Of a DNA stretch of 10,904 bases, positions 1 through 10,904 are shown piece by piece. The stretch spans positions 1 to 10,904 of IMG/VR virus record IMGVR_UViG_2660238215_000014. The stretch is one strand, 5' to 3'. A program made the position numbers and the translations under genes. Origin of the DNA: a virus (lineage: Duplodnaviria; Heunggongvirae; Uroviricota; Caudoviricetes). The notes below the pieces were generated by a model, which was not told where the DNA came from, made no database searches, and saw only the letters and a program-made list of their open reading frames with translations. Every line of letters begins with the position of its first letter. Position 1 is the first letter of the stretch.

Positions 1-78
1 CCACCAGTATAAGTTATTGATATATAGAAAAATAAAAATTTTTAGTGTCGAATCTGGTTGTTTTTTGTTCATCACTGG
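1..78. repeat. Copy A of a 78-bp imperfect direct repeat (copy B at 8446-8523; 72/78 identical), located 30-108 bp upstream of the terS start
   Basis: Base-by-base alignment of 1-78 with 8446-8523 gives 6 mismatches (positions 7, 14, 26, 29, 30, 55 of the repeat); longest exact blocks are 24 and 23 bp. Contains the 10-bp palindrome AAAAATTTTT (34-43) and TGTTCAtC (66-73), one mismatch from the origin octamer. The window starts inside or at the edge of this repeat, so its leftward extent is unknown. Confidence 0.85.
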
Positions 79-108: not shown

Positions 109-585
109 ATGGATCGTGAATTAAAAAATCTGCATCTGAATATTTCCCAACTGGCCGCATTATCCGGTGCTCATCGACAGACTGTTGCGGCTCGGGTAAA
201 AAACATAAGCCCAGCCGGTGGTCATGAGAGCAATCTCAAACTGTACCGACTGACAGATATCCTTGCCGAGCTGATGAAAGCTCCTCTGCCTGTAGATAAC
301 GAGGAAATGGATCCTCATGCGCGTAAAGCATGGTACCAGTCAGAACGTGACCGACTGAAATTTGAGCAGGAAACTGGTCAGCTTGTGCCAGTCAGTGATG
401 TCAGGCGGTCCTTTTCTGTCGTGGTGAAAGCGATAGTTCAGGTACTGGAAACCTGGCCTGACCGGCTGGAGAGGGACAGGGGGTGGACCGCATCACAACT
501 GAATGAAGTACAGATTGTGGTTGATGAGATCCGCGACACACTGGAAAAGGCAGTCATTGACTGTTGTGATGAGGCCGATATGTGA
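109..585 (+). CDS. terS: Phage terminase small subunit (Nu1-like, N-terminal helix-turn-helix DNA-binding domain)
   Basis: 158-aa ORF with good RBS; N-terminal motif LNISQLAALSGAHRQTVAARV resembles the winged-HTH of small terminases; its stop overlaps the start of the gpA-type large terminase ORF (GTGA at 582-585), the classic terS-terL coupling. Confidence 0.65.
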   Translation: MDRELKNLHLNISQLAALSGAHRQTVAARVKNISPAGGHESNLKLYRLTDILAELMKAPLPVDNEEMDPHARKAWYQSERDRLKFEQETGQLVPVSDVRRSFSVVVKAIVQVLETWPDRLERDRGWTASQLNEVQIVVDEIRDTLEKAVIDCCDEADM

Positions 586-1589
586 ATCAGGTGAACGAGA
601 GCCATAGCCGCGCATCCGATATCTGGCGCGAAGTGGCCTCGCTGTTTCGCCCACCCAGCCGGTTACCAGTAGCGGAAGCCATCAGGCGTTATATGCGGGT
701 TCCACGGGGAGCCAATACTTCCGGTCCGTGGGAGTCATCGCTGACGCCCTATATGATTGACCCCATTAATACATTATCAGCCCGTGAATATGACGCGGTG
801 GTGTTTGTGGGACCTGCGCGAACCGGGAAAACCGAAGGGCTGATTGATGGCTGGATTGTGTACGGCATCATCTGTGATCCGGCGGATATGCTGGTGGTGC
901 AGATGACTGAGACGAAGGCGCGTGAGCATTCCAGAACGCGTCTTTCCAGGACGTTTCGCCACAGTCCGGAGGTCAGCAAGCGCCTCAGTCCTTCCCGTAA
1001 TGACAACAACGTCCACGATAAAATGTTTCTTGACGGCTCCTTCCTGAAGATTGGCTGGCCGTCGATCACCGTCTTTTCCTCTTCGGATTACCGTCGTGTG
1101 GCGCTGACGGATTATGACCGTTTCCCTGAAAACGTGGACGGGGAAGGGGATGCCTTCACGCTGGCCTCAAAGCGTACCACCACCTTTATGTCCTCGGGGA
1201 TGACCCTGGTCGAGAGTTCACCGGGGCGGGATATCACCGATACCAAATGGCGTTGTGGTGGCGCACATGAGGCACCGCCAACAACGGGGATCCTGTCACT
1301 GTATAACCGGGGAGACCGCCGCCGGTGGTACTGGCCGTGTCCGCACTGCGGGGAATATTTTCAGCCGGTGATGGATAACATGACCGGATACCGGAATAAC
1401 CCGGATTTTGTGGCTGCCGGTCAGGCTGCCCGTCTGATGTGTCCGCATTGTCGCGGGCTGATTGCCCCTGAGCAGAAACGCGAACTGAATAACCAGGGGA
1501 TCTGGCTTCGTGAAGGTGAACGGGCGGCGGCGGACGGCAGTATCACCGGAACGCCACGAAACTCCCGGATTGCGTCATTTTGGATGTAG
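582..1589 (+). pseudogene. terL: Large terminase, lambda gpA family, N-terminal fragment only (335 aa versus about 640 aa expected)
   Basis: Walker A GPARTGKT; paired CxxC motifs (CPHCGEYF ... CPHCRGL) as in lambda gpA from memory; gpA-like similarity continues to the last residues (GIWLREG ... ASFWM), then a TAG stop at 1587-1589 coincides with a sharp shift to AT-rich non-coding DNA. No continuation in any frame. Confidence 0.8.
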
Positions 1590-1750
1590 GGTACATTTCT
1601 TACCTGTTTGTATGTTCTGGTGTCGATTCATAGTCTTTTCAATGAGTTGTGATTTTATGAGTTTCCTCTCTTTGCTTGATAATGAGTTAGTTTATCGCTT
1701 GTTATTGGCTTGAATGGACTACATGACGGACTAAAAAATGAGGGCGATAG

Positions 1751-2989
1751 ATGTCGGTAAAGCCATTAACCGTGACTGAAGTTAAGGGGATGAAACCACG
1801 TGAAAAGGACTATGCCGTTTATGATGGGTTCGGTTTATTGCTGAATGTGAGTAAAGCCGGTGGGAAAGTGTGGCGTTTCCGTTATAGCCATCCGATAACG
1901 AAGAAACGGCAGACATACACGATAGGACGTTTTCCTGAATTCTCACTCGCGGAAGCACGGGAAGTACGTGATGAACTTCGGCGAATGATTGCACGTGGAG
2001 TTGATCCAGTGACGGAGAAGAAAAATCGTAAAATTGAGATGTCACTAAAAAATCTACAGACATTTGAAGCTGTTGCTAATGCATGGTTCGCTTTTAAAAA
2101 GGGATCTGAATTGCGGAAACCTACGCTGTATAATATCGAATATGAAGTATACAAATATCTTGTTCCTTTCTTTGGTAAGTACAGTATAGAAAAAATTACA
2201 GCACCAGTAGCTATTAATGCTCTGGATGCCGTATCCGATAAGAATGCGTTGCAAAAAAAATTAATATCAAGATTAAATGAAATTATGAATTATGCTGTAA
2301 ATTGTGGAGCATTGAAAGCAAATCCATTACTTAAGATAAAGACTGCATTCACAGGAAAGAAAAATAAATCATTAGCAGCACTACCTGTTGAAAGATTGCC
2401 TGAATTTCTGAGCTGGTGGGATAGTGTGCCTCATACCTATCAAATAGCTCATAATGCACTTTTATTCCAGATATTGACAATGGTTAGGCCAGGTGAGGCG
2501 ATTAAAGCAGAGTGGTCAGAGATTGATTTTGATTCTGGCTTGTGGATTATCCCCGCGCATAAAATGAAATGCCATCGTGAACATGTTGTTCCCTTGTCAT
2601 CACAGGCTATTAGTATCCTCAGAACAATGCAGGAAATAAAAAGAGGGCGTTATGTGTTTTTTTCCTCCAGAACAAAAGATGCGCCTATGGGGAGGAATAC
2701 TATCAAGACCCCAATTGCTGCCAGCAAGTTCAAAGGGATTGTAACGTTACATGGTTTTCGTTCAATGTGGAGTACGCTTTTAAATGAGGAGGGATTTAAC
2801 CCCGATGTAATCGAGGCTGCATTGGCGCATAAAAGTGGTGATAAAATAAGAGATATTTATAATAGAACTATTTATCTAGAACAGCGTAAGATCATGATGC
2901 AATGGGTCGGTGATTTTTTTGATGATGCGAGAAAAGGGGTAATTAATAGATCCGGTGGTATGAAAGGTTTAAGAGTAGTAAATGGTTGA
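1751..2989 (+). CDS. int: Tyrosine site-specific integrase, P4-like family (N-terminal arm-binding domain plus catalytic domain)
   Basis: 412 aa; N-terminus GLLLNVSKAGGKVWRFRYSHP...GRFPEFSLAEAREVRDEL matches the P4-type integrase arm-binding domain; C-terminal catalytic signature R (MVRPGEA), HGFRSMWST, LAHKSGDKIRDIYNRTIY with terminal Tyr. RBS GAGGG 6 nt upstream. Gene is markedly more AT-rich than its neighbours. Confidence 0.9.
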   Translation: MSVKPLTVTEVKGMKPREKDYAVYDGFGLLLNVSKAGGKVWRFRYSHPITKKRQTYTIGRFPEFSLAEAREVRDELRRMIARGVDPVTEKKNRKIEMSLKNLQTFEAVANAWFAFKKGSELRKPTLYNIEYEVYKYLVPFFGKYSIEKITAPVAINALDAVSDKNALQKKLISRLNEIMNYAVNCGALKANPLLKIKTAFTGKKNKSLAALPVERLPEFLSWWDSVPHTYQIAHNALLFQILTMVRPGEAIKAEWSEIDFDSGLWIIPAHKMKCHREHVVPLSSQAISILRTMQEIKRGRYVFFSSRTKDAPMGRNTIKTPIAASKFKGIVTLHGFRSMWSTLLNEEGFNPDVIEAALAHKSGDKIRDIYNRTIYLEQRKIMMQWVGDFFDDARKGVINRSGGMKGLRVVNG

Positions 2990-3002
2990 GGAGGTTCAGC
3001 AA

Positions 3003-3206
3003 ATGAATACCAATGAAGATATTTTATTTACTAAAGACGTAATGAAAATCTTGCGATATGGAGCAATGAGTGCATTCATCAATTTCTGGAAAGATGAGAA
3101 TAATGGTTTTCCTCAGCCGTTCAGAATTGGACGACGACATACCTGGCACCGTAGAGATGTAGAAGCATGGTTAGATAAACAACGAGAACAGGCCAATCCC
3201 CACTAA
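3003..3206 (+). CDS. alpA: AlpA/Vis-like small HTH transcriptional regulator or excisionase
   Basis: The track ORF starts at 2982, but a strong SD GAGGAGG (2988-2994) sits 8 nt before the in-frame ATG at 3003, giving 67 aa. Motif FPQPFRIGRRHTWHRRDVEAWL fits the AlpA family (FP-P-ilG-r---W---dV--Wl). Immediately downstream of int in the same orientation, as in P4 (vis) and Gram-negative PICIs. Confidence 0.75.
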   Translation: MNTNEDILFTKDVMKILRYGAMSAFINFWKDENNGFPQPFRIGRRHTWHRRDVEAWLDKQREQANPH

Positions 3207-3220
3207 TAATATCTTTCATA

Positions 3221-3245
3221 CCCCGCGTGCAATGCGGGGTTTTTT
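3221..3245 (+). terminator. Rho-independent terminator after int-alpA
   Basis: Stem CCCCGC (3221-3226), loop GTGCAAT, stem GCGGGG (3234-3239), followed by TTTTTT (3240-3245). Confidence 0.7.
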
Positions 3246-3265
3246 GTATGTGAGGTAAAAAAGAA

Positions 3266-3847
3266 ATGAATAAAAATATTGCCGTGACGGGCAAGGGTGA
3301 CGCACGTCATGTAAAAAAATTCTGTGATATTCGTGATCTGGTCGTTCTGCGCTTTGATAGTGTGAACGTTCGCGTGGTGTATCTGAACGGCGATCCGTGG
3401 TTTGTTGCAAAGGATGTTTGTGTTGCTCTGGAAATAAGTAACTCACGCGATGCTCTAAAAGCACTAGATGCGGATGAAAAGAAAACCGTCGCTTTAAGCT
3501 ACGGTATTCGAGGAAATCCAAATCATAGCCTCATTTCTGAATCCGGTTTTTACAAGCTGATCGCCAGAAGTCGGAAAGCTGTTACTCCTGGCACGTTCGC
3601 CCATCGTTTCAGTAACTGGGTATTCAGGAATGTGATACCGGGTATCAGAAAAACGGGGGCTTATGGTATCCCGTGGGGTGTAGTACAGGATTTTTCCCGC
3701 CGCAAAGAGCAATACCAGATAAGTGCCAGCGAGAAGGGGAGGGCGCTACAGGCATGTAAGCGCAAAAAACGTGAACTGGAGGAAGAAGAAAAAAGGCTGA
3801 TACGTGAATATCAGCCTGAGTTTTACTTTGGCAACCGCATTCAGTGA
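3266..3847 (+). CDS. Bro-N domain protein (antirepressor-like N-terminal domain, short coiled-coil-like C-terminus, no obvious KilA-C domain)
   Basis: 193 aa; hallmark Bro-N motifs VRVVYLNGDPWFVAKDVCVALEI ... SGFYKLIARSRKAVTPGTFAHRFSNWVFRNVIPGIRKTGAYG; SD GAGG 10 nt upstream of ATG 3266; C-terminal 50 aa rich in K/R/E. Confidence 0.8.
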   Translation: MNKNIAVTGKGDARHVKKFCDIRDLVVLRFDSVNVRVVYLNGDPWFVAKDVCVALEISNSRDALKALDADEKKTVALSYGIRGNPNHSLISESGFYKLIARSRKAVTPGTFAHRFSNWVFRNVIPGIRKTGAYGIPWGVVQDFSRRKEQYQISASEKGRALQACKRKKRELEEEEKRLIREYQPEFYFGNRIQ

Positions 3848-3879
3848 CAAAACAAAGGCGACCCGGATCAGAGGTCGCC
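3847..3879 (-). terminator. Putative rho-independent terminator for the minus-strand RHH gene
   Basis: Inverted repeat GGCGACC (3857-3863) / GGTCGCC (3873-3879) with 9-nt loop; on the minus strand the hairpin is followed by TTTGTTTTGT (complement of 3847-3856). Confidence 0.5.
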
Positions 3880-3970
3880 AATGGGAAAACACTAAACATA
3901 AGCCCAAACATCATAGCGATTTGTTGGCTGGTGGGCAATGTGATCAGTGTGCTGGCTTGCTGGTGGATTG

Positions 3971-4153
3971 TCAGCCTTTTGGTTCTATGCCTTCTTTGCG
4001 TAGCTTGTCACGACAGGCATTTTTAACCCATGAACTGAAATTACCAGGCCCAGCAACTTCGTTAATTTGTTGCAACAATGTGTCTTCGAAGCGGATGTTT
4101 TTCTTTGTGCTGCCGGAGCGATCAAATTTTGGTTTCTCATTTTTTTCTTGCAT
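3971..4153 (-). CDS. Small ribbon-helix-helix (Arc/CopG-like) DNA-binding protein; candidate repressor of the element
   Basis: 60 aa; segment KKNIRFEDTLLQQINEVAGPGNFSSWVKNACRDKL has the beta-strand / helix / G-x-S / helix pattern of RHH proteins. It is the only convincing minus-strand gene, divergent from the rightward operon, with palindromic operators at its 5' side and a hairpin terminator at its 3' side. Confidence 0.5.
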   Translation of the reverse strand: MQEKNEKPKFDRSGSTKKNIRFEDTLLQQINEVAGPGNFSSWVKNACRDKLRKEGIEPKG

Positions 4154-4198
4154 TGGTACGTACCACCATTATAAACTGAAACCCAATGGTACGTACCA
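4154..4198. promoter_or_regulatory. Two copies of the perfect 12-bp palindrome TGGTACGTACCA (4154-4165 and 4187-4198) bracketing a -10-like TATAAA; putative operator pair in the divergent promoter region
   Basis: Both copies read directly; 33 bp centre to centre (about 3 helical turns). Rightward -35-like TTGCAT (4148-4153) and -10-like TATAAA (4170-4175); on the minus strand a perfect TATAAT lies between the palindromes (complement of 4167-4172). Confidence 0.6.
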
Positions 4199-4298
4199 TG
4201 TTGAAGATACGCAACCATTAAATACAGCGAAGCCCCGCAGTGGTGGAACACTCGCAGGGCTTCTAACCACCAACGATAGCAAGATTATCGAGGTAGCT

Positions 4299-4490
4299 AT
4301 GTTAAATCATACCACACACCCGCAAGGGCGGGACTTGCACAACCTGAATAAATTCACCTGGCGTTTTATCGCCCTGAGCACGGCACAACCGCGCGTGATT
4401 ACCATTGAGGCCACCAGCGAACAGGAAGCACGCCAGCAATCTCCTGATGGCTGCGTGATGGTATTCGCTGCCCGTATTCGTCAGGGGTAA
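4299..4490 (+). CDS. Small hypothetical protein (63 aa), first gene of the rightward operon; function unknown
   Basis: ATG 4299 preceded by GAGG (4289-4292); corresponds to the C-terminal in-frame part of track ORF 3804-4490, whose upstream part looks non-coding. I have a vague, unverifiable recollection of Icd-like annotations on similar small proteins. Confidence 0.45.
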   Translation: MLNHTTHPQGRDLHNLNKFTWRFIALSTAQPRVITIEATSEQEARQQSPDGCVMVFAARIRQG

Positions 4491-4493
4491 GTC

Positions 4494-4859
4494 ATGCATA
4501 ACCTGTCAATTTCTGACCTTAACTGCATTCAGTTTGACGAGAAATTTACCGGGCAGCTACTGGTCCATGTGGAGAACGGGCGCATAGTGCGTAATTACCA
4601 CCTGCCGGATGGTGCAATTGCCGGAAGCGTTGAAGCATTGCTGGAACTGGCAGAACGTGCGCGACTGATTAAGCCGTTAACGAACCATCACGATGATGAT
4701 CTGCATTTTACCGGACGCATGGTGAGTCACTACGAAAACGGCGTCGAGGTATCCCGCGAACGGCTGCGTGATGATTGCTGTTTCGGCACACTGCCGGAAT
4801 TTATCGAGTTGCTGACCAGTTGCGGTTATCAGGTCATTCAGGGGGGTAAACATGCGTGA
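4494..4859 (+). CDS. Hypothetical protein (121 aa) made of two tandem copies of a roughly 50-aa domain (FTG-x-LV-x3-ENG ... L-x-ELL)
   Basis: SD AGGGG 7 nt upstream. Internal duplication visible in the translation: FTGQLLVHVENGRIVRNYHLPDGAIAGSVEALLELAERA versus FTGRMVSHYENGVEVSRERLRDDCCFGTLPEFIELLTSC. Confidence 0.6.
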   Translation: MHNLSISDLNCIQFDEKFTGQLLVHVENGRIVRNYHLPDGAIAGSVEALLELAERARLIKPLTNHHDDDLHFTGRMVSHYENGVEVSRERLRDDCCFGTLPEFIELLTSCGYQVIQGGKHA

Positions 4860-5085
4860 TGATCGTTTTAATTCCCTGAAACGGGAATTTGATGGCGCAC
4901 AGGAAGATGCAGCGGGCGCATTGTTGAGCGTTGCTGACATGATGAAAGCTGCATATTTTCTTATCAATACCAGTGGCTACAAGTCAGAGGGTGAAATGAT
5001 TCTTAGTATTGCGTCGGACTATGCGGAATATGTGGCAGAGACGCGTTACAGAAGAAAATTCACGGAGGATGTAAGCCATGCATAA
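4852..5085 (+). CDS. Hypothetical protein (77 aa)
   Basis: ATG overlaps the end of the previous gene by 8 nt; SD GGGGGG upstream; acidic, helical-looking sequence, no recognisable motif. Confidence 0.5.
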   Translation: MRDDRFNSLKREFDGAQEDAAGALLSVADMMKAAYFLINTSGYKSEGEMILSIASDYAEYVAETRYRRKFTEDVSHA

Positions 5086-5279
5086 TCATGAAGCGCATGT
5101 ACCCGTAGTGCTTAATGTGCCAGATGATTTCACCGGACGCGTACTGGTTTACCTGGATAAAGGGAAAGTGAAATCACAATGCCGACTGAAAAGTAATGAG
5201 ATTGTTGGTTCTCCTGAATTTTTTTTCTGAACTTTGTATTCGTGCGGAAATAAAACCGGAACTGCTGACAGGAAAATAA
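5078..5279 (+). pseudogene. Third copy of the FTG domain (paralog of 4494-4859), interrupted by a frameshift at a T8 homopolymer (5219-5226)
   Basis: ATG 5078 overlaps the previous stop (ATGCATAA). Frame 1 gives MHNHEAHVPVVLNVPDDFTGRVLVYLDKGKVKSQCRLKSNEIVGSPEFFF* (stop 5228-5230); the +1 frame continues SELCIRAEIKPELLTGK* (stop 5277-5279), which aligns with the ELAERARLIKPL part of the paralog. Not in the ORF track because each piece is under 60 aa. Confidence 0.5.
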
Positions 5280-5283
5280 AACC

Positions 5284-5574
5284 ATGAAAAAGAAAAATTC
5301 TGGCTTTACTGCCAGCGGCCTCTCTCGGCCTGAAATCCGCCCCGGTGATATTTTCCGGGACACCAGACGCGGTGGACGGGTGGTTATTCGTCACGTTACG
5401 CCAGGCAATATCACCTACCGCCGTGAGGCTTACGAATATGACTGCGTAATGCCGCGCCGTCAGTTTGATCGTGATTTTATTCTGGTGGAAAACAAACAAC
5501 AGGCAGTGGCGAGACGTGCAGCCACGAATATTAAAAAAATCCGGGCAATGTTGGTTGCGGGAGGTAAGAAGTGA
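5284..5574 (+). CDS. Hypothetical basic protein (96 aa), immediately upstream of and coupled to pri-rep
   Basis: ATG 5284 after AAAACC; stop overlaps the GTG start of the primase gene (GTGA 5571-5574); K/R-rich, no recognisable motif. Confidence 0.5.
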   Translation: MKKKNSGFTASGLSRPEIRPGDIFRDTRRGGRVVIRHVTPGNITYRREAYEYDCVMPRRQFDRDFILVENKQQAVARRAATNIKKIRAMLVAGGKK

Positions 5575-7370
5575 AAAACGCACCGAGTCTAAAATATCAG
5601 CTGAAGGATAAATTCACTGAGGTAATCATTTTTGCCGGGACGGATGCTTACGCCCATGCTCAACACTGGATTGAAAGTGAAGGACGAAAACACGGCGATA
5701 ACGTGCCTCCTGTTTACCTGGGGCCAAAGCAACTGGCAGACCTGGCGAATATCCGCATTATTGACGAGAAACGCCGTTTTGCGCGTGTCTATATCGCGGG
5801 GGAGATAGAGCCAATCCAGATCAATACTATCGCTGAAAAGCTGGCGCTGGCTGGCGTACAGGAGGCGAAATTATACAAAGGTATCACCGACCAGGAACCG
5901 GAGAACTGGCGCGACTACCTGCAACGGATCCGCGAACAGGCTGAGCACGGGGAAGTTTCAGTGATGAAATTAGCTACAAAAAATAGTGGTCTACCCAAGC
6001 CTGCATTAAATCAGATGGGAGCCAGCCAGAGAGGGGAAGTGTTACTTGAACATTATGGAGGAGCACTGGCGATTCATGCTGACTCTGACACTGTTCACCA
6101 TTACAACGGCGTTGTATGGGAGCCAGTACAGGATAAAGAATTACAGCGAGCTATGGCACAGATTTTCATTGATGCGGAGATCAGCTATTCGCAGAACGCC
6201 ATTAAATCGGCGGTAGATACCATGAAGTTAAGTTTGCCTGTAATGGGGAATACAGCCCGTAACCTGATTGGATTCAGTAACGGTGTTTTTGATACCCGGA
6301 CAGGCGATTTTCGGGAGCATAACAAAAACGACTGGTTGTTAATTGCCAGTGAATTACCTTTCAGCCCACCAGCAGAGGGGGAAACGCTGGCAACACATGC
6401 GCCGAATTTCTGGAAGTGGTTACGCCGTTCGGTGGCTGAGAATGACCGCAAGGCGGATCGCGTACTGGCTGCATTATTCATGGTGCTGGCGAACCGGTAC
6501 GACTGGCAGTTATTCATTGAGGTAACAGGTCCAGGGGGAAGTGGTAAAAGCGTGATGGCGGAGATTTGCACCATGCTGGCGGGTAAGGCCAACACGGTAT
6601 CGGCAAGCATGAAGGCGCTGGAAGATGCCAGGGAACGCGCGTTAGTGGTTGGCTTTTCGCTGATTATCATGCCGGATATGACCCGCTACGCTGGTGATGG
6701 GGCAGGGATTAAGGCTATTACAGGCGGTGACAAGGTGGCAATTGACCCGAAACACAAAGCCCCCTACTCAACGCGTATTCCGGCAGTAGTGCTGGCGGTT
6801 AACAATAACGCCATGTCATTCAGTGACCGCAGCGGGGGGATCTCACGTCGTCGGGTGATATTCAATTTTTCGGAAGTTGTACAGGAGAACGAACGCGATC
6901 CAATGCTGGCGGAAAAAATAGAAGGTGAGCTGGCGGTAGTGATTCGCCATCTGCTTACACGGTTTGCTGACCAGGACGAAGCCAGACGCCTGTTATATGA
7001 GCAGCAGAAATCTGAAGAAGCACTGGCGATAAAGCGAGAGGGGGATTCGCTGGTGGACTTCTGCGGCTATCTCATGGCGTCGGTAATGTGTGATGGCCTG
7101 TTAGTGGGTAATGCTGAAATTGTACCATTCAGCCCACGCAGGTATCTCTATCATGCCTATCTGGCTTATATGCGGGCACATGGGTTTGGTAAACCTGTAA
7201 CACTGACTCGCTTCGGTAAAGATATGCCGGGGGCAATGGCGGAATATGGCAGGGAGTATATGAAACGGAAAACGAAGCACGGTTTGCGTTCAAACGTGAC
7301 ACTGATGGAGGAATCAGAAGACTGGATGCCATCATGTGTATCGGTCACTAATGACGATAGCAAAAATTAA
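5571..7370 (+). CDS. Replication initiator primase/helicase (pri-rep; P4 alpha-like / D5-type SF3 helicase with P-loop)
   Basis: 599 aa, GTG start with SD GGAGGT (5560-5565); Walker A GPGGSGKS near residue 310 with downstream hydrophobic strand and acidic motif (LIIMPDMT); N-terminal region resembles a primase/Toprim-like domain; cognate iteron origin lies immediately 3' of the gene. Confidence 0.8.
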   Translation: MKNAPSLKYQLKDKFTEVIIFAGTDAYAHAQHWIESEGRKHGDNVPPVYLGPKQLADLANIRIIDEKRRFARVYIAGEIEPIQINTIAEKLALAGVQEAKLYKGITDQEPENWRDYLQRIREQAEHGEVSVMKLATKNSGLPKPALNQMGASQRGEVLLEHYGGALAIHADSDTVHHYNGVVWEPVQDKELQRAMAQIFIDAEISYSQNAIKSAVDTMKLSLPVMGNTARNLIGFSNGVFDTRTGDFREHNKNDWLLIASELPFSPPAEGETLATHAPNFWKWLRRSVAENDRKADRVLAALFMVLANRYDWQLFIEVTGPGGSGKSVMAEICTMLAGKANTVSASMKALEDARERALVVGFSLIIMPDMTRYAGDGAGIKAITGGDKVAIDPKHKAPYSTRIPAVVLAVNNNAMSFSDRSGGISRRRVIFNFSEVVQENERDPMLAEKIEGELAVVIRHLLTRFADQDEARRLLYEQQKSEEALAIKREGDSLVDFCGYLMASVMCDGLLVGNAEIVPFSPRRYLYHAYLAYMRAHGFGKPVTLTRFGKDMPGAMAEYGREYMKRKTKHGLRSNVTLMEESEDWMPSCVSVTNDDSKN

Positions 7371-7382
7371 ACTTATGGAATA

Positions 7383-7613
7383 ACTGTTCACCACTGTTCA
7401 CCCTGTCATAAATATCTTTTATATCAGTATATTATAGGGTGAACAGTTATTTATTAACTGTTCACCAAACTATTCACTGTTCACCTTTTTGATTGTTTAT
7501 TGAGCTTCAAGGGTGAACAGTGGTGAACAGTTGGTGAATAGTTTTTGTGAAACTGTTCACCAATTAACATTATGAATTAAAAGATAAAATATCAAAAGGT
7601 GAACAGGTGAAGG
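7383..7613. repeat. Replication origin: array of TGTTCACC iterons in both orientations with AT-rich spacers
   Basis: Perfect forward copies at 7385-7392, 7395-7402, 7459-7466, 7478-7485, 7554-7561; perfect inverted copies (GGTGAACA) at 7438-7445, 7512-7519, 7522-7529, 7598-7605; degenerate copies at 7471-7478, 7533-7540, 7606-7613; AT-rich stretches 7403-7437 and 7562-7597. Confidence 0.85.
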
Positions 7614-7657
7614 GTTAAAACGCAAAAATTTTAATTTACTGCTGTGAGATAAAGCCT

Positions 7658-7903
7658 ATGACAGCGAAGCACACAAAAAAATCACAATCGCACGCCCTTG
7701 ATTTGACGGAACACTGGTTAAGGGTGTCGATAAAAATCATCGACCGCAACGCCGGGGAAGGATATGCGAAAGCACATCCCGAACTAATAATCGCATTCAT
7801 GACCACGGCGGCGGCAAACTTTGCCACGCTGACGGAACGGGAGATTGCCGAAGCGGAACAGGTAACAACCATCAACGTTAAAACCGGAGAGGTGGAATCA
7901 TGA
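7658..7903 (+). CDS. Hypothetical protein (81 aa)
   Basis: ORF downstream of the origin; its stop overlaps the SSB-like start (ATGA 7900-7903), suggesting an operon; no recognisable motif. Confidence 0.4.
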   Translation: MTAKHTKKSQSHALDLTEHWLRVSIKIIDRNAGEGYAKAHPELIIAFMTTAAANFATLTEREIAEAEQVTTINVKTGEVES

Positions 7904-8323
7904 CAGCACAGATAGCCGCTTACGGGCGGCTGGTGGACGACCCGCAGGTAAAACAGACCAGCAAGGGCACACCGATGACGCTGGCGCGTATGGCGGTCCC
8001 CCCTTCCGTGCAGCCAGGCAGATGACGGAACGGCGACGATGTGGTTATCCGTCCTGGCATTTGGCAGACAGGCCGAAGCACTGGAAAGGCACCGCAAGGG
8101 TGAACTCCTGAGCGTGGCGGGTAACATGCAGATCAGCCAGTGGACTGGGCAGAACGGAGAAACGCGGCAGGGCTGGCAGGTTATCGCAGACAGTGTAATC
8201 AGTGCGCGAACGGCGCGACTGGGCGGCAAAAAAGGTCAACAAGGCCAGGCTACTGACGCGCTGAACAGGGCAAAACAACAGGCGGGGAATGATGATCCGT
8301 ACGGGGATAACATACCGTTTTAA
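7900..8323 (+). pseudogene. ssb: Single-stranded DNA-binding (SSB)-like gene split by a frameshift at a C6 run (7998-8003)
   Basis: Frame 1 from ATG 7900: MTAQIAAYGRLVDDPQVKQTSKGTPMTLARMAV..., resembling the SSB N-terminus ([27 protein letters not shown]), stop at 8023-8025. Frame 2 open from 7979 through track ORF 8039-8323: ...WLSVLAFGRQAEALERHRKGELLSVAGNMQISQWTGQNGETRQGWQVIADSV ... DNIPF, resembling the SSB OB-fold core and IPF tail. Confidence 0.6.
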
Positions 8324-8339
8324 GCGACGAGTGACAGAA

Positions 8340-8361
8340 GCCGGAGCAATCCGGCTTTTTT
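8340..8361 (+). terminator. Rho-independent terminator after the SSB-like gene
   Basis: Stem GCCGGA (8340-8345), loop GCAA, stem TCCGGC (8350-8355), then TTTTTT (8356-8361). Confidence 0.75.
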
Positions 8362-8445
8362 ACGGGTCCTCCTGGCGGGGTGGGCCTGAACACGGGGCGA
8401 CGGGCGCGGAAAAAGGCGCATTTTTTGATTTTTATGGCACCATCA

Positions 8446-8523
8446 CCACCACTATAAGCTATTGATATATTGAGGAATAAAAATTTTTAGTGTCGAATCA
8501 GGTTGTTTTTTGTTCATCACTGG
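8446..8523. repeat. Copy B of the 78-bp imperfect direct repeat (copy A at 1-78)
   Basis: See copy A. Weaker homology continues about 25 bp further (TTTACA ... CAGG) with an indel. In copy B the -10-like element of copy A is replaced (CAAAAA in place of CATAAT). Confidence 0.85.
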
Positions 8524-8790
8524 AACGTTCCCGAAAACATTTACAAAAAAACAGGCGCAAAAAAAAGCGCCCCCGATTGCTGTTACCGGAGGCGCTTTTA
8601 CACGACAAAGGAGTTTTTATCGCCAGGATGACGAGTCTTAATATTGCTTCAATGGCAAAAATGCGTCAATGGCTTTGCCTCTCTGAGAATAATCAGAAAA
8701 AACATAATCTGATTTTCAGGTAGAAAATGATTTATCTATTGCTTTTATCGATCAATAATGATGCCCGTTAATCAAAACGGAGGCGGATTT

Positions 8791-8985
8791 ATGCCAGAGA
8801 ACAACACCAGAAAGCCGGATAAAAGTGCCACGGTACACATAGACGCCGGAACTATGGAGAAGATCGAACGCTATCAGCAGTTCATCAAAGATAATCACCC
8901 GGGTATGCCGGTACCCACGAAAGGACAAATCACACGCAGCGCGGTTGAATACTGGTACCAGGCAACGTTAGGAGCCTGGCTATGA
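8791..8985 (+). CDS. Small hypothetical protein (65 aa from ATG 8791; track start 8758), possibly RHH-like, translationally coupled to the protease-capsid gene
   Basis: Strong SD GGAGG (8779-8783) 7 nt before ATG 8791; stop overlaps the capsid ORF start (ATGA 8982-8985); pattern ATVHIDAGTMEKIERYQQFIK ... TKGQITRSAVEYWYQA is compatible with a beta-strand / helix / helix fold. Confidence 0.45.
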   Translation: MPENNTRKPDKSATVHIDAGTMEKIERYQQFIKDNHPGMPVPTKGQITRSAVEYWYQATLGAWL

Positions 8986-10871
8986 AAACATGGTTTTCCA
9001 TTAAGGCTATGGCAGATGTTGTCTATGTGCGTATTTATGACGAGATCGGCGGGTACGGTGTAAAAGCATCGACACTTACTGACGAGATCAACGCGTGCGG
9101 TAATGCGTCTGAAATCCATCTTCGCATCCATTCACCTGGTGGCGACATCTTTGAAGGGCTGGCTATCTATAACGCCCTGAAAAATCATCCGGCAAAGAAA
9201 ATTGTACACATTGAAGGCATGGCGGCTTCTATGGCCTCGTTTATTGCCATGTGTGGCGATCACATCGTTATGCCTGAAAACGCGATGATGATGATACATG
9301 CCCCCCGTGGTGTTACTGCCGGAGTGTCGGGCGACGTTCGCCGCTTTGCTGACCTGATGGACAAGCTGGGCGACACGATGGCGGAAACCTACGCCGGAAG
9401 AACGGGCAGGAGCAAACAGGAGATCACCTCAATGATGGAGGCGGAAACCTGGATGGATGGCAATGAGTGTAAGGCTAACGGCTTCGCAGATGAGGTTATA
9501 CCCGCGATTACAGCAATGGCCCGAATTGAATCAAAACGAATCGGAGATTTTTCAAATATGCCGGAAAAAATTAAAAGCATGATCAGCCAGAAAACTGGCA
9601 GTGGCGAACAGGAACGACTTAACGGAATCCGTGAATTGTTTGGCACCTTCAACGGAAGATATAACGACCTGGCTATAAGTTGTCTTGCGGATTCAGAATG
9701 TAGCGTTGAGAATGCACGCGAACGCCTTTTACTCGCTATGGGTAAAGAATCAACGCCAACAAACAAAACCACCCCCGCAAATCTTTACTACGCGTACACG
9801 GATAACGGCAATATAACCGGCGATGCCATGCGTCAGGGGCTTAATGCGCGTCTTGGTCACGAACGGGCCGAACGCGGTAATCCTTACGCCATGATGAGCC
9901 TTTTCGATATGGCACAGGCATCATTAACCCATCGTGGTATAAGCACGGGCAGCTACAGCACACGCTCGCAGATAGTAAACGCGGCATTCACCCACAGCAG
10001 CAGCGATTTTACCGATATCCTTGCTGGTGGCGCTGAAAAATCAGTGCTTGCAGGCTGGGAGCACAGCGGCGAAACATTCCGCCAGTGGACGAAAAAAGGT
10101 TCCCTTTCAAACTTCCGGGAAGCCCGCCGCGTTGGTATGAATGGCTTCTCAACGTTAAACAAAGTGCCGGAAGGGGCAGAATATAAATACATCACCACCA
10201 GCGATCGCGGTGAACCCATCGCGCTGGCTACTTACGGGAATATTTTCAGTATTACCCGCCAGGCGATAATCAATGATGACCTTGATCAGTTATCAACGGT
10301 GCCAATGGCTATGGGCCGTGCAGCATCAAGAACGGTGGGAAATCTGGTTAATCTGGTGCTTACAGGCAACGTAAAACTTTCTGACGGAATAACGCTGTTT
10401 GACAAAAAACACAGCAACCTGATTGAAACAGGACTGACAACACCGGGACTTAGTGCAGCACGTCACCTGATGCGCACACAGAAGGACAAAAATGGCGAAG
10501 TGCTGAATATTGCGCCTAAATTCCTTTTAGTTCCGGCAGCACTGGAAGATCGCGCGTTGCAGATGATTAACTCAACCGCACCTTTCGGGGCTGATAAAAA
10601 CAGCGGGATCTTTAACCCGTATCACAAGCTACTTGATATCATCGTCGATCCCCGCCTTGATGATATCAGCGAAAAACAATGGTACATGCTTTCCGCACAG
10701 GGAACGGACACAATCGAGGTGGCTTATCTTGATGGCAATGACGAGCCTTACCTTGAACAGCAGGAAGGTTTTATCGTTGACGGCGTGGCCTGGAAAGTCC
10801 GTATTGATGCAGGTGTGGCAGCTCTGGATTATCGCGGTATGGTCAAATCAGGCGGGACAGATTCACTATGA
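8982..10871 (+). CDS. Prohead serine protease (ClpP/S14-like) fused to an HK97-fold major capsid protein
   Basis: 629 aa; N-terminal region has ClpP-like signatures (HSPGGDIFEGLAIYNAL, catalytic Ser context GMAASMASF, His context MMMIHAP); the C-terminal 350 aa or so resemble phage major capsid proteins; followed directly by a strong terminator, typical of a highly expressed capsid gene. Confidence 0.8.
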   Translation: MKTWFSIKAMADVVYVRIYDEIGGYGVKASTLTDEINACGNASEIHLRIHSPGGDIFEGLAIYNALKNHPAKKIVHIEGMAASMASFIAMCGDHIVMPENAMMMIHAPRGVTAGVSGDVRRFADLMDKLGDTMAETYAGRTGRSKQEITSMMEAETWMDGNECKANGFADEVIPAITAMARIESKRIGDFSNMPEKIKSMISQKTGSGEQERLNGIRELFGTFNGRYNDLAISCLADSECSVENARERLLLAMGKESTPTNKTTPANLYYAYTDNGNITGDAMRQGLNARLGHERAERGNPYAMMSLFDMAQASLTHRGISTGSYSTRSQIVNAAFTHSSSDFTDILAGGAEKSVLAGWEHSGETFRQWTKKGSLSNFREARRVGMNGFSTLNKVPEGAEYKYITTSDRGEPIALATYGNIFSITRQAIINDDLDQLSTVPMAMGRAASRTVGNLVNLVLTGNVKLSDGITLFDKKHSNLIETGLTTPGLSAARHLMRTQKDKNGEVLNIAPKFLLVPAALEDRALQMINSTAPFGADKNSGIFNPYHKLLDIIVDPRLDDISEKQWYMLSAQGTDTIEVAYLDGNDEPYLEQQEGFIVDGVAWKVRIDAGVAALDYRGMVKSGGTDSL

Positions 10872-10877
10872 CAACAA

Positions 10878-10899
10878 GGCGGCACCAGCCGCCTTTTTT
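10878..10899 (+). terminator. Rho-independent terminator after the capsid gene
   Basis: Stem GGCGGC (10878-10883), loop ACCA, stem GCCGCC (10888-10893), then TTTTTT (10894-10899). Confidence 0.75.
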
Positions 10900-10904
10900 G
10901 CGGG

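What the first reader, a model, noticed from the sequence alone, without database searches (positions are those of the whole stretch)
1590..8361. Compact P4/PICI-like satellite architecture: int - alpA - switch - pri-rep - iteron origin
Gene order and orientation (integrase followed co-directionally by an AlpA/Vis-like regulator, then a primase/helicase with its origin immediately downstream) match the layout described for Gram-negative phage-inducible chromosomal islands and P4-like satellites. There are no lysis or tail genes in about 7 kb. Such elements parasitise helper phages and often carry anti-phage cargo, so the unassigned genes here are candidates for helper-interference or defence functions.
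Basis: partly seen in the sequence, partly recalled or inferred. Interest (0 to 1): 0.6.

Follow-up and report, generated by a model that had tools for sequence, protein, structure and literature searches.

The report
Phage satellite embedded in helper terminase gene
The region is a small parasitic element (a phage satellite) inserted precisely in the DNA-packaging gene of a resident E. coli prophage; this helper-embedded arrangement was described in 2023, but here it uses an unrelated integrase and a new target gene.

Summary
The satellite reading holds, but its key feature was missed.

**What it is.** The element is 10,249 bp in the closest genome. It is inserted at a TTGGATG core in the gpA-type large terminase gene of a lambdoid prophage, co-oriented with the late operon. 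It runs past 8361 and past the window end.

**What else it carries.**
- A full copy of the helper's cos site.
- A second, partial cos.
- Its own ClpP-protease/major-capsid fusion, 50-55% identical to the helper's.

**Evidence for the insertion.**
- Joining the flanks recreates an intact terL, 100% identical to genes in other E. coli.
- The same element with identical ends sits at a chromosomal secondary site.

**Relation to known systems.** This is the helper-embedded PICI configuration of Tommasini et al. 2023, and the replication protein is 85% identical to their founder's. The integrase, however, scores only 86 bits (25% identity) against theirs. Their arm motif is absent, and a gpA site is not among their 14.

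**Wider lead.** Relatives of this integrase at 44-99% identity lie in prophage late-gene clusters in 11 of 11 clusters sampled, at many different sites. This suggests a second late-gene-targeting integrase clade.

No defence cargo was detected.

The parts
1..78 (+). Helper prophage: right (cosB-like) part of its cos region, upstream of terS. It is repeated inside the satellite at 8446-8523.
   Evidence: A 78-nt direct repeat at 92% identity. The full helper cos lies at L001 17913-18075 and aligns with lambda cosQ/cosN.
109..585 (+). Helper small terminase-like gene (DUF1441).
   Evidence: Pfam DUF1441, 2.3e-49. It sits directly before terL.
582..1589 (+). Helper large terminase, N-terminal ATPase half (335 aa), cut off by the insertion.
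   Evidence: GpA_ATPase, 6.1e-82, residues 45-308. PGAP marks it 'missing C-terminus'. The GpA_nuclease half resumes after the element at L001 29824.
1580..1591 (+). attL identity block TTGGATGTAGGG, with core TTGGATG at 1580-1586. The TAG at 1587-1589 stops the truncated terL.
   Evidence: attL and attR compared. The rejoined flanks are 100% identical to intact terL genes. The junction is the same in a diverged terL allele and at a secondary chromosomal site.
1751..2989 (+). Satellite tyrosine integrase of the P4/CP4-57 type.
   Evidence: Pfam and NCBIfam PRK09692. It is 33% identical to P4 Int and 25% (86 bits) to 11capE Int.
2982..3206 (+). Small HTH protein in the AlpA/excisionase position. 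PGAP starts it at 3003.
   Evidence: phrog_66, 1.7e-7. HTH_17 scores 17.5 bits, below cutoff. It is only weakly similar to the 11capE HTH and not at all to P4 Vis.
3220..3240 (+). Terminator-like hairpin ending the int-HTH unit.
   Evidence: 9-bp stem with 6 GC pairs and a T run.
3266..3847 (+). Bro-N / anti-repressor-like protein (the 'Bro zone').
   Evidence: Bro-N, 9.4e-19; phrog_2593, 1.2e-84.
3971..4153 (-). DUF3950 / YlcI-YnfO family small protein, the only leftward gene.
   Evidence: Pfam DUF3950, 5.4e-8; NCBIfam YlcI_YnfO_N.
4299..4490 (+). Icd-like small protein, first gene of the rightward operon.
   Evidence: NCBIfam phage_ICD_like, 4.3e-20; phrog_6196.
4494..5230 (+). Three small genes of unknown function (4494-4859, 4852-5085, 5078-5230).
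   Evidence: phrog_340, phrog_2512 and phrog_24341, all of unknown function. No Pfam or PADLOC hits.
5284..5574 (+). DUF4222 protein; its stop overlaps the start of the rep gene.
   Evidence: DUF4222, 3.9e-19. The same position is conserved in 11capE and in every related satellite sampled.
5571..7370 (+). Replication initiator: SF3 helicase plus P4 alpha-type origin-binding domain, with no recognisable primase domain.
   Evidence: D5_N, DUF5906 and Pox_D5. It is 51% identical to P4 alpha residues 327-771. Residues 491-587 match PDB 1KA8 at 1.8e-24. It is 85% identical to the 11capE protein.
7382..7616 (.). Replication origin: 9 exact TGTTCACC iterons plus variants in both orientations, in AT-rich DNA.
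   Evidence: The octamer is the same as the annotated 'ori type 1 repeat' of phage P4.
7658..7903 (+). Conserved small protein of unknown function.
   Evidence: phrog_1231, 9.8e-49. The position is conserved in 11capE.
7900..8323 (+). SSB gene, frameshifted in this copy.
   Evidence: Pfam SSB. One extra C in a C-run near 7998 compared with two intact homologues.
8337..8361 (+). Terminator-like hairpin after SSB.
   Evidence: GCCGGAGCAATCCGGC followed by T6, read from the sequence.
8361..8523 (+). Satellite cos copy 1: cosQ-like, cosN-like and cosB-like parts of the helper cos.
   Evidence: In L001, satellite copy 1 is 93% identical over 164 nt to the helper region upstream of terS. The window's copy aligns with it and with lambda cos, and its right part repeats window 1-78 at 92%.
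8758..8985 (+). Small protein; its stop overlaps the start of the capsid gene.
   Evidence: phrog_4934, 5.7e-51, function unknown. No PDB match.
8982..10871 (+). Satellite-encoded ClpP-like prohead protease / major capsid protein fusion.
   Evidence: NCBIfam scaf_prot_MCP1, 888 bits; Pfam CLP_protease plus Phage_capsid_4. It is 50-55% identical to the helper's own fusion gene.
10877..10904 (+). Terminator hairpin and the first bases of cos copy 2 (cosQ and cosN only). The rest of the element lies beyond the window: two small ORFs, then attR about 880 bp on.
   Evidence: Element end mapped at L001 29835.

Best explanation
The window holds attL and the left 9.3 kb of a roughly 10.25-kb PICI-type phage satellite. 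The satellite is integrated inside the gpA-family large terminase gene of a lambdoid prophage and points the same way as the prophage's late operon. This is the helper-embedded PICI configuration.

**Shown**
- The insertion is precise and splits terL at the boundary between its ATPase and nuclease domains.
- Removing the element restores an intact terL.
- The same element, with identical ends, occurs at a secondary chromosomal site.
- It carries its own integrase and a small HTH protein.
- It has a P4 alpha-type helicase/origin-binding initiator with P4-type iterons, and an SSB gene.
- It has a complete copy of the helper's cos site, a second partial cos, and a diverged homologue of the helper's protease-capsid fusion.

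**Inferred**
1. After induction, Q-antiterminated late transcription of the helper runs through terS and the terL stump into int and the HTH gene. No strong terminator is predicted between the terL 3' end (after 1352) and 3220.
2. Integrase plus the excisionase-like HTH protein then cut the satellite out. Only at that point can the helper make a functional terminase, so satellite excision always precedes packaging.
3. The satellite replicates from its own origin.
4. The helper's terminase, or that of near-identical co-resident prophages, packages it at its cos site.
5. The satellite capsid protein possibly contributes to capsids suited to a 10-kb genome. This last point is speculative.
For: **Context**
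- In the 97%-identical O111:H8 8E locus, lysis genes, terS and terL' lie upstream. terL'', portal, capsid and tail genes lie downstream.

**Junctions and mobility**
- attL and attR share TTGGATG(G/T)AGGG.
- The synthetic empty site is 100% identical in one piece to intact terL in many genomes.
- The terL-int junction is present in 87 of 5426 complete E. coli genomes, against 90 carrying the int-HTH module.
- The insertion point is identical in a diverged terL allele.
- In RM10410 the element has identical ends at a look-alike chromosomal site between pgrR and mppA.

**Packaging and capsid**
- cos copies aligned with the helper cos and with lambda cosQ/cosN.
- The capsid homologue is 50-55% identical to the helper's.

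**Replication**
- Replication module and iterons.

**Precedent**
- The architecture matches 11capE gene for gene.
- It also matches the published four-zone HE-PICI model, in which excision on induction was shown experimentally for 11capE (PMC10111431).
Against: - Nothing here shows activity. SSB is frameshifted in this copy, and the helper's capsid gene is frameshifted in the closest complete genome.
- The HTH protein is not a recognisable AlpA by Pfam.
- The replication protein lacks a primase domain.
- No sequenced phage or virion record contains the element.
- The read-through transcription, the timing of excision, the use of cos and any capsid-size effect are all inferences by analogy with 11capE and lambda.
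Confidence: 0.8

Rival explanations
1. This copy, or the whole lineage in STEC, is an inactive relic. The insertion simply knocked out the prophage's terminase and now persists as a fixed, immobile scar in a defective prophage.
For: - SSB is frameshifted in the window.
- The helper protease-capsid gene is frameshifted in strain 8E.
- In the dog isolate the helper's portal-to-tail genes are deleted.
- Tommasini et al. note that many HE-PICI helpers look truncated.
Against: - int, HTH, rep and capsid genes are intact.
- The int-HTH module is 99.8% identical in most of the listed carrier genomes, which span serotypes O157, O121, O145, O103 and O45.
- The same site is used in diverged terL alleles in E. 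coli, and relatives with 76% and 68% identical integrases sit after truncated gpA terL genes in Salmonella and Rahnella.
- A secondary-site copy has exact ends, which points to recent integrase-mediated movement.
Confidence: 0.15
2. The region is an ordinary module of the lambdoid prophage itself, namely its own integrase and replication genes, and not a separate element.
For: It lies inside a prophage between terminase and portal genes.
Against: - Hundreds of genomes carry the same terL uninterrupted, 100% identical across the joined flanks.
- The element occurs without any prophage at pgrR/mppA.
- The prophage has its own early and replication region upstream.
Confidence: 0.02
3. It is a P4-family satellite of a P2-like helper that landed in terL by accident.
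For: - The integrase is 33% identical to P4 Int.
- The rep protein is 51% identical to alpha.
- The TGTTCACC iterons are identical, and the origin-binding domain matches 1KA8.
Against: - There is no homologue of sid, psu, delta, epsilon, cII or vis, and no P4 cos.
- There is no C4/isrK immunity RNA, although P4 scores as a control.
- The cos copies match the surrounding lambdoid helper.
- 87 of about 90 copies are in terL.
- Relatives of the integrase are consistently found in late genes.
Confidence: 0.03

Closest known systems
Helper-embedded PICIs (HE-PICI), founder Eco567.11capE in E. coli NRG857c (Tommasini, Mageeney & Williams 2023, PMC10111431)
   Same: [quoted passage not shown]
- Same four zones: int/HTH, Bro, DUF4222-rep-SSB, and a late zone.
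- Rep protein 85% identical.
- DUF3950/YlcI, Icd-like, DUF4222, phrog_1231-type and SSB genes in the same order.
- A copy of the helper cos, and a homologue of the helper's capsid gene.
   Different: - The integrase is only 25% identical (86 bits) against their 400-bit inclusion cutoff.
- Their doubled TGTATTGC arm motif is absent. A TTTATCGCTT pair at -105 and +104 is a weak candidate replacement.
- The target is a gpA-family terL at the ATPase/nuclease boundary. Their terminase sites are all in Terminase_1, and 'GpA' appears nowhere in their supplements.
- There are two cos copies.
- No defence cargo is seen, whereas 11capE carries HEPN and DUF262 genes.
Gram-negative PICIs such as EcCICFT073 (described in PMC10111431 as the model PICI)
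   Same: int plus a small HTH at one end, a replication module with an origin, about 10 kb, cos-type packaging presumed, and no lysis or tail genes.
   Different: Classical PICIs sit in chromosomal genes and interact with the helper only in trans. This one interrupts the helper's terL.
Satellite phage P4
   Same: - Integrase family: 33% identity.
- Alpha-type helicase and origin-binding domain: 51% identity, PDB 1KA8 match.
- Identical TGTTCACC iterons.
   Different: - No primase domain in the rep protein.
- No sid, psu, delta, epsilon, cII or vis.
- No CI RNA.
- Lambdoid rather than P2 helper and cos.
- Integrated in a phage gene, not a tRNA gene.
Capsid-forming PICIs (cf-PICI, e.g. EcCIEDL933; bioRxiv 10.1101/2022.09.08.507074)
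   Same: Encodes its own HK97-type capsid protein and prohead protease.
   Different: It has only the protease-capsid fusion. No portal, head-tail connector or terminase gene is seen in the window or in the rest of the element.

Membership tests
Helper-embedded PICI (HE-PICI) | Integrated within, and disrupting, a late gene of a prophage, with an intact attB recoverable. | tested here: met
   terL is split at codon 335. The rejoined flanks are 100% identical to intact terL genes.
Helper-embedded PICI (HE-PICI) | Key genes co-oriented with the interrupted late operon. | tested here: met
   All genes except the DUF3950 gene are on the terS/terL strand.
Helper-embedded PICI (HE-PICI) | Four-zone organisation: integration, Bro, replication (DUF4222, primase-like, SSB), late. 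| tested here: met
   The gene order matches 11capE.
Helper-embedded PICI (HE-PICI) | Integrase belongs to the published HE-PICI clade (at least 400 bits to the 11capE integrase). | tested here: not met
   86 bits, 25% identity. All sampled relatives score 51-90 bits.
Helper-embedded PICI (HE-PICI) | Doubled TGTATTGC motif about 81 bp upstream and about 132 bp downstream of the attP centre. | tested here: not met
   Absent from the reconstructed attP. The same script finds it in 11capE at -106/-94 and +128/+140.
Helper-embedded PICI (HE-PICI) | Shares a cos-region copy with the helper. | tested here: met
   164 nt at 93% identity, plus a second 68-nt copy.
Helper-embedded PICI (HE-PICI) | Excises precisely from the composite after induction. 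| not testable with these tools
   Only indirect support: empty sites and a secondary-site copy with identical ends.
Gram-negative PICI | int followed by alpA in the same direction. | tested here: inconclusive
   A small HTH gene is in the right place. It matches phrog_66 (excisionase/regulator), but Pfam Phage_AlpA is not hit and HTH_17 is below cutoff.
Gram-negative PICI | Own replication initiator and origin; about 10-15 kb; no lysis or tail genes. | tested here: met
   The element is 10,249 bp.
P4-like satellites | alpha primase-helicase with TGTTCACC iterons. | tested here: inconclusive
   The helicase, the origin-binding domain and the iterons are present. The primase domain (alpha residues 1-326) is absent.
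P4-like satellites | sid, psu, delta and epsilon genes, and CI immunity RNA. | tested here: not met
   tblastn with all P4 proteins finds only int and alpha. There is no C4/isrK hit, while the P4 control scores.
cf-PICI | Complete head module: capsid, protease, portal, connectors and packaging genes. | tested here: not met
   Only the protease-capsid fusion is present. The rest of the element holds two small unassigned ORFs.

The most novel reading that the evidence does not exclude
This element may represent a second integrase clade, unrelated to the published HE-PICI clade, that has independently acquired a tropism for prophage late genes.

**Where the relatives sit.** Integrases 44-99% identical to this one, all from Enterobacterales, lie directly downstream of and co-oriented with prophage morphogenesis genes in 11 of 11 protein clusters sampled from general assemblies. 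There are at least nine different sites, spread over three kinds of virion module:
- gpA terL in E. coli, Salmonella and Rahnella
- an S78 protease-capsid fusion
- a neck/tail gene
- the DUF2213/cement junction
- a PF09950 capsid gene
- a myovirus baseplate cluster
- a terS-proximal site
- a tail-tip cluster
- a portal/Mu_F site

**Contrast with more distant relatives.** Relatives at 42% identity or less sit mostly at tRNA or tmRNA genes.

**Tree.** In a neighbour-joining tree the late-gene set forms one nested group, and the three terL-site integrases cluster together.

**Implication.** If this holds, helper embedding evolved at least twice. Interrupting terL would then be a packaging checkpoint imposed by the satellite.
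Probability: 0.55. Interest if true: 0.6.

Novelty: new variant of a known kind. Interest (0 to 1): 0.45.

Why it matters
Helper-embedded satellites were reported once, in 2023, as the product of a single integrase clade. That paper suggested some peculiarity of the clade might explain its tropism for prophage late genes.

Here an element with the same backbone uses an integrase from a different, P4/CP4-57-like lineage. Many relatives of that integrase are also lodged in late genes of very different phages. This points to selection for the embedded lifestyle, rather than to one integrase's quirk.

It also enlarges the set of prophages whose 'defects' (split terminase, capsid or tail genes) may in fact be reversible satellite insertions.

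This is practically relevant for STEC. The element sits in lambdoid prophages of O157, O111, O121, O145, O103 and O45 strains. Terminase interruption and satellite interference could affect the release of neighbouring prophages that share near-identical terminases.

Tried and rejected
- **Rfam scan of the window.** At E up to 1 it gave only three sub-threshold chance hits. There is no C4/isrK, while P4 as a positive control scores both. P4-type RNA immunity is therefore rejected.
- **PADLOC on ten unassigned proteins.** No hits, so there is no support for defence cargo.
- **PDB sequence search of three small proteins.** Nothing informative.
- **Megablast against 50,697 phage records.** Only a 17%-coverage match to a primase gene of an induced 16.5-kb element.
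- **The published HE-PICI arm motif.** Absent.
- **A 44-bp excess in some terL hits (H21).** I suspected an excision scar. The att region there is intact and the extra bases lie elsewhere, so I dropped it.
- **One-genome-per-species scan with the integrase.** It found nothing above 40% identity, so the close relatives had to come from the large protein collection.
- **The P4 'cI' ORF and Vis.** No similarity to the Icd-like and HTH proteins.

Full report
**1. What is in the window**

The ORF list and profile searches give one co-directional gene series:

| Coordinates | Feature |
|---|---|
| 109-585 | DUF1441, terS-like |
| 582-1589 | 335-aa ORF holding only the GpA_ATPase domain of a large terminase |
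| 1751-2989 | Tyrosine integrase (Arm-DNA-bind_3, Phage_int_M, Phage_integrase; NCBIfam PRK09692) |
| 2982-3206 | 74-aa HTH protein (phrog_66 'excisionase and transcriptional regulator'; HTH_17 below cutoff) |
| 3266-3847 | Bro-N / anti-repressor-like protein |
| 3971-4153 (minus strand) | DUF3950 / YlcI-YnfO gene, the only leftward gene |
| 4299-4490 | Icd-like protein |
| 4494-5230 | Three small PHROG-only genes |
| 5284-5574 | DUF4222 |
| 5571-7370 | 599-aa D5_N / DUF5906 / Pox_D5 protein |
| 7382-7616 | AT-rich iteron field |
| 7658-7903 | Small conserved gene |
| 7900-8323 | SSB |
| 8758-8985 | Small gene |
| 8982-10871 | ClpP-like prohead protease / major capsid fusion |

There is no tRNA gene. 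TGTTCACC occurs 10 times against 0.41 expected, and 9 of those lie within 7385-7605.

**2. Context: an insertion in the helper's terminase gene**

The window is 97% identical to chromosomal loci of STEC strains. In O111:H8 strain 8E the annotated neighbourhood is a lambdoid prophage, with this order:
- early region and lysis genes
- DUF1441 terS and a terL fragment marked 'missing C-terminus'
- the element
- a 'terminase gpA endonuclease subunit … missing N-terminus'
- portal, protease-capsid fusion and lambda-like tail genes

The C-terminal fragment is a GpA_nuclease domain. The split therefore falls at the ATPase/nuclease boundary.

The junctions read as follows:
- attL: GCGTCATTTTGGATG|TAGGGTAC. 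Strain 8E has G where the window has T after the core.
- attR: TTCTTCTTGGATG|GAGGGGCC.
- The shared identity block is TTGGATG(G/T)AGGG.
- The element is 10,249 bp in 8E.

Four comparisons establish a discrete element that integrates site-specifically:
- I joined 400 bp of left flank to 400 bp of right flank across one core copy. This synthetic empty site matches intact 'phage terminase large subunit' genes at 100% identity in a single piece in many E. coli genomes.
- In a dog isolate the same insertion point is used in a diverged terL allele: …ATTGCGTCATTCTGGATG|TAGGGTAC.
- In strain RM10410 the element has exactly the same ends but lies between the chromosomal genes pgrR and mppA. The site there resembles the terL core: GTCACTTTTTGGATG… / …TTTGATGGAAG.
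- The terL-int junction is present in 87 of 5426 complete E. coli genomes, and the int-HTH module in 90. terL is therefore the primary target.

Carriers include O157:H7, O111:H8, O121:H19, O145:H28, O103:H2 and O45:H2.

**3. The element does not end at 8361**

Position 8361 is the end of a terminator hairpin after SSB.
- **cos copy 1.** From 8361 to 8523 the window carries a copy of the helper's cos region. In L001, satellite copy 1 is 93% identical over 164 nt to the DNA just upstream of the helper terS; the window's copy aligns with it. Its right part also repeats window 1-78 at 92%.
- **Match to lambda.** Aligned with lambda, both the helper and the satellite copy show the cosQ-like CGGGTCCTCCTGG and a cosN-like ACGGGGCG…GCGCGG (GGGCGGC in the helper, GACGGGC in the window's copy).
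- **cos copy 2.** A second copy has only the cosQ and cosN parts (68 nt, 96%). It follows the capsid gene and begins at the last bases of the window.
- **Between the copies.** The small phrog_4934 gene and the protease-capsid fusion lie here. The fusion is 50-55% identical to the helper's own fusion gene.
- **Beyond the window.** Two small unassigned ORFs and attR.

**4. Replication module**

- The 599-aa protein aligns with P4 alpha residues 327-771 at 51% identity. It has nothing corresponding to alpha's N-terminal primase domain.
- Its residues 491-587 match the solved P4 origin-binding domain, PDB 1KA8, at E = 1.8e-24.
- The iteron octamer is identical to the annotated 'ori type 1 repeat' of P4.
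- 'pri-rep' should therefore read 'alpha-type helicase/origin binder'. Priming is unexplained.

No other P4 gene has a homologue here, including sid, psu, delta, epsilon, cII and vis. P4 cos is absent too. The C4/isrK immunity RNAs are also absent, although the same scan finds both in P4.

**5. Comparison with what is known**

Tommasini, Mageeney & Williams (2023, PMC10111431) described helper-embedded PICIs.
- The founder, 11capE, sits in the capsid gene of a lambdoid prophage.
- It excises after the composite has excised and replicated.
- 491 further elements occupy 14 sites in cognates of lambda late genes.

I fetched 11capE. Its gene order is the same as here: int, HTH, YlcI/YnfO, Icd-like, DUF4222, primase-like, small gene, SSB, capsid genes. 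Its rep protein is 85% identical to ours. The configuration, the four zones, the cos copy and the extra capsid homologue all match.

Three things do not:
- **Integrase.** Ours scores 86 bits (25% identity) against 11capE Int. Their survey required 400 bits. Ours is closer to P4 Int, at 202 bits.
- **Arm motif.** Their doubled TGTATTGC motif is absent from our reconstructed attP. My script recovers it in 11capE as a control.
- **Target site.** Their terminase sites are all in the Terminase_1 family. Neither 'GpA' nor the other late-gene site names I searched (portal_3, Major_capside, Sheath_initiator, DUF2213, Terminase_2/3) occur in their supplementary tables or att alignments.

The HTH protein is also only marginally similar to theirs. 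The library search found no later paper extending HE-PICIs.

**6. A wider pattern, offered as a lead**

*Distant relatives.* The one-genome-per-species scan found only relatives at 40% identity or less. Of those loci, 47 of 50 have a tRNA or tmRNA gene about 200 bp upstream.

*Closer relatives.* The large protein collection holds a graded series of Enterobacterales relatives from 87% down to 44% identity. I looked up genomic contexts for ten of these clusters. With the window's own cluster that makes 11, and all lie directly after co-oriented prophage morphogenesis genes. Each is followed by a small HTH gene, DUF4222 and a primase or helicase gene:

| Cluster | Identity to ours | Host | Upstream context |
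|---|---|---|---|
| P0004 | 76% | Salmonella | Truncated gpA terL after DUF1441 |
| P0008 | 68% | Rahnella | Truncated gpA terL after DUF1441 |
| P0009 | 63% | Salmonella | Truncated S78 protease-head fusion (profile 15-393 of 626) |
| P0013 | 60% | E. coli | Truncated neck/tail gene |
| P0044 | 52% | Raoultella | Truncated PF09950 capsid gene (profile 4-65 of 251) |
| P0043 | 50% | E. coli | DUF2213/cement junction |
| P0049 | 49% | Enterobacter | Baseplate cluster |
| P0052 | 48% | Pantoea | terS-proximal site |
| P0060 | 45% | Pantoea stewartii | After portal_3 |
| P0057 | 44% | Providencia | Tail-tip cluster |

*Checks and controls.*
- For two of these types, complete E. coli genomes show the helper's late genes resuming after a 10-12-kb satellite.
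- The two clusters sampled at 41-42% identity sit at tRNA-Pro.
- All clade members score 51-90 bits against 11capE Int.
- In a neighbour-joining tree without support values, the late-gene contexts form one nested group inside tRNA/tmRNA-targeting integrases. The three terL-site integrases cluster together.
- An IMG/VR scan adds a tail-tube site, a tail-chaperone site and a Mu_F site. It also gives two chromosomal exceptions.

*Caveats.*
- Empty sites were verified for the terL site and, on the left flank only, the cement site.
- The tree is crude.
- IMG/VR is biased towards phage contexts.

**7. Mechanism**

Shown:
- a precise, reversible-looking interruption of terL;
- the element's own integrase, replication initiator and origin;
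- the helper-type cos;
- a capsid homologue.

Inferred, by analogy with 11capE and lambda:
- Late transcription reads from terS and terL' into int and the HTH gene. No strong plus-strand terminator is predicted between 1352 and 3220.
- Excision rebuilds terL, so terminase appears only once the satellite is free.
- The satellite is then replicated from its iterons and packaged at cos copy 1.
- Because STEC genomes carry up to five places matching this terL segment, terminase could also come from a co-resident prophage.

Not explained:
- the role of the second, cosB-less cos;
- the role of the satellite capsid protein;

**8. Verdict**

- The satellite interpretation is right but incomplete.
- The configuration is a known kind (HE-PICI). 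This element uses a different integrase lineage and a new target, and it may be one member of a second late-gene-targeting integrase clade.
- This particular copy may be impaired, because its SSB gene is frameshifted.
- No defence cargo was found.

Noticed in passing
window 7900-8323: The SSB gene is frameshifted by one extra C in a C-run near 7998, next to a patch of substitutions. Two homologues (O111 8E and 11capE) are intact. It could be a sequencing error or a real pseudogene.
   Followed up: partly
window 3968-4251 and 5640-6008: Two short patches do not align with the otherwise 95-99% identical O111 8E element. They cover the DUF3950/YlcI gene and the N-terminal 145 aa of the rep protein. 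This suggests mosaic exchange among satellites.
   Followed up: no
window 10900-10904 and L001 28944-29011: A second, partial cos copy (cosQ and cosN without cosB) lies directly after the satellite capsid gene, 2.5 kb downstream of the complete copy and in the same orientation. It may be a scar of late-gene capture or a termination site.
   Followed up: partly
L085 22299-25110 (E. coli UK_Dog_Liverpool): Here the satellite capsid gene is followed by a DUF1441 terS copy and then tail-fibre genes. The helper's terL 3' half, portal, capsid and most tail genes are gone. This is a rearranged or decayed composite.
   Followed up: no
L001 32655-34633: The helper prophage's own ClpP-protease/capsid fusion gene is frameshifted in strain O111:H8 8E, so that helper is probably defective by itself.
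   Followed up: no
H117 and H118 (E. coli TUM9812, AREA_492): An integrase about 96% identical in DNA to the neck-gene-targeting type (P0013) lies next to a terminase large subunit gene instead. One integrase subclade may use two late-gene sites.
   Followed up: no
L111 489-2399 (E. coli SA53-3): The helper prophage that hosts a related embedded satellite carries subtilase AB5 cytotoxin genes upstream of its lysis module.
   Followed up: no
L112 24843-28634 (E. coli EC2001): A related embedded satellite carries baseplate-like genes and a DUF2280 (terS-like) gene in its late zone. This is consistent with capture of helper late genes.
   Followed up: no
reconstructed attP, window 1691-1700 and L001 29731-29740: The 10-mer TTTATCGCTT occurs once on each arm, at +104 and -105 from the core, in the same orientation. 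It is a candidate arm-type integrase site, but a single 10-mer pair in 600 bp is not far from chance.
   Followed up: partly
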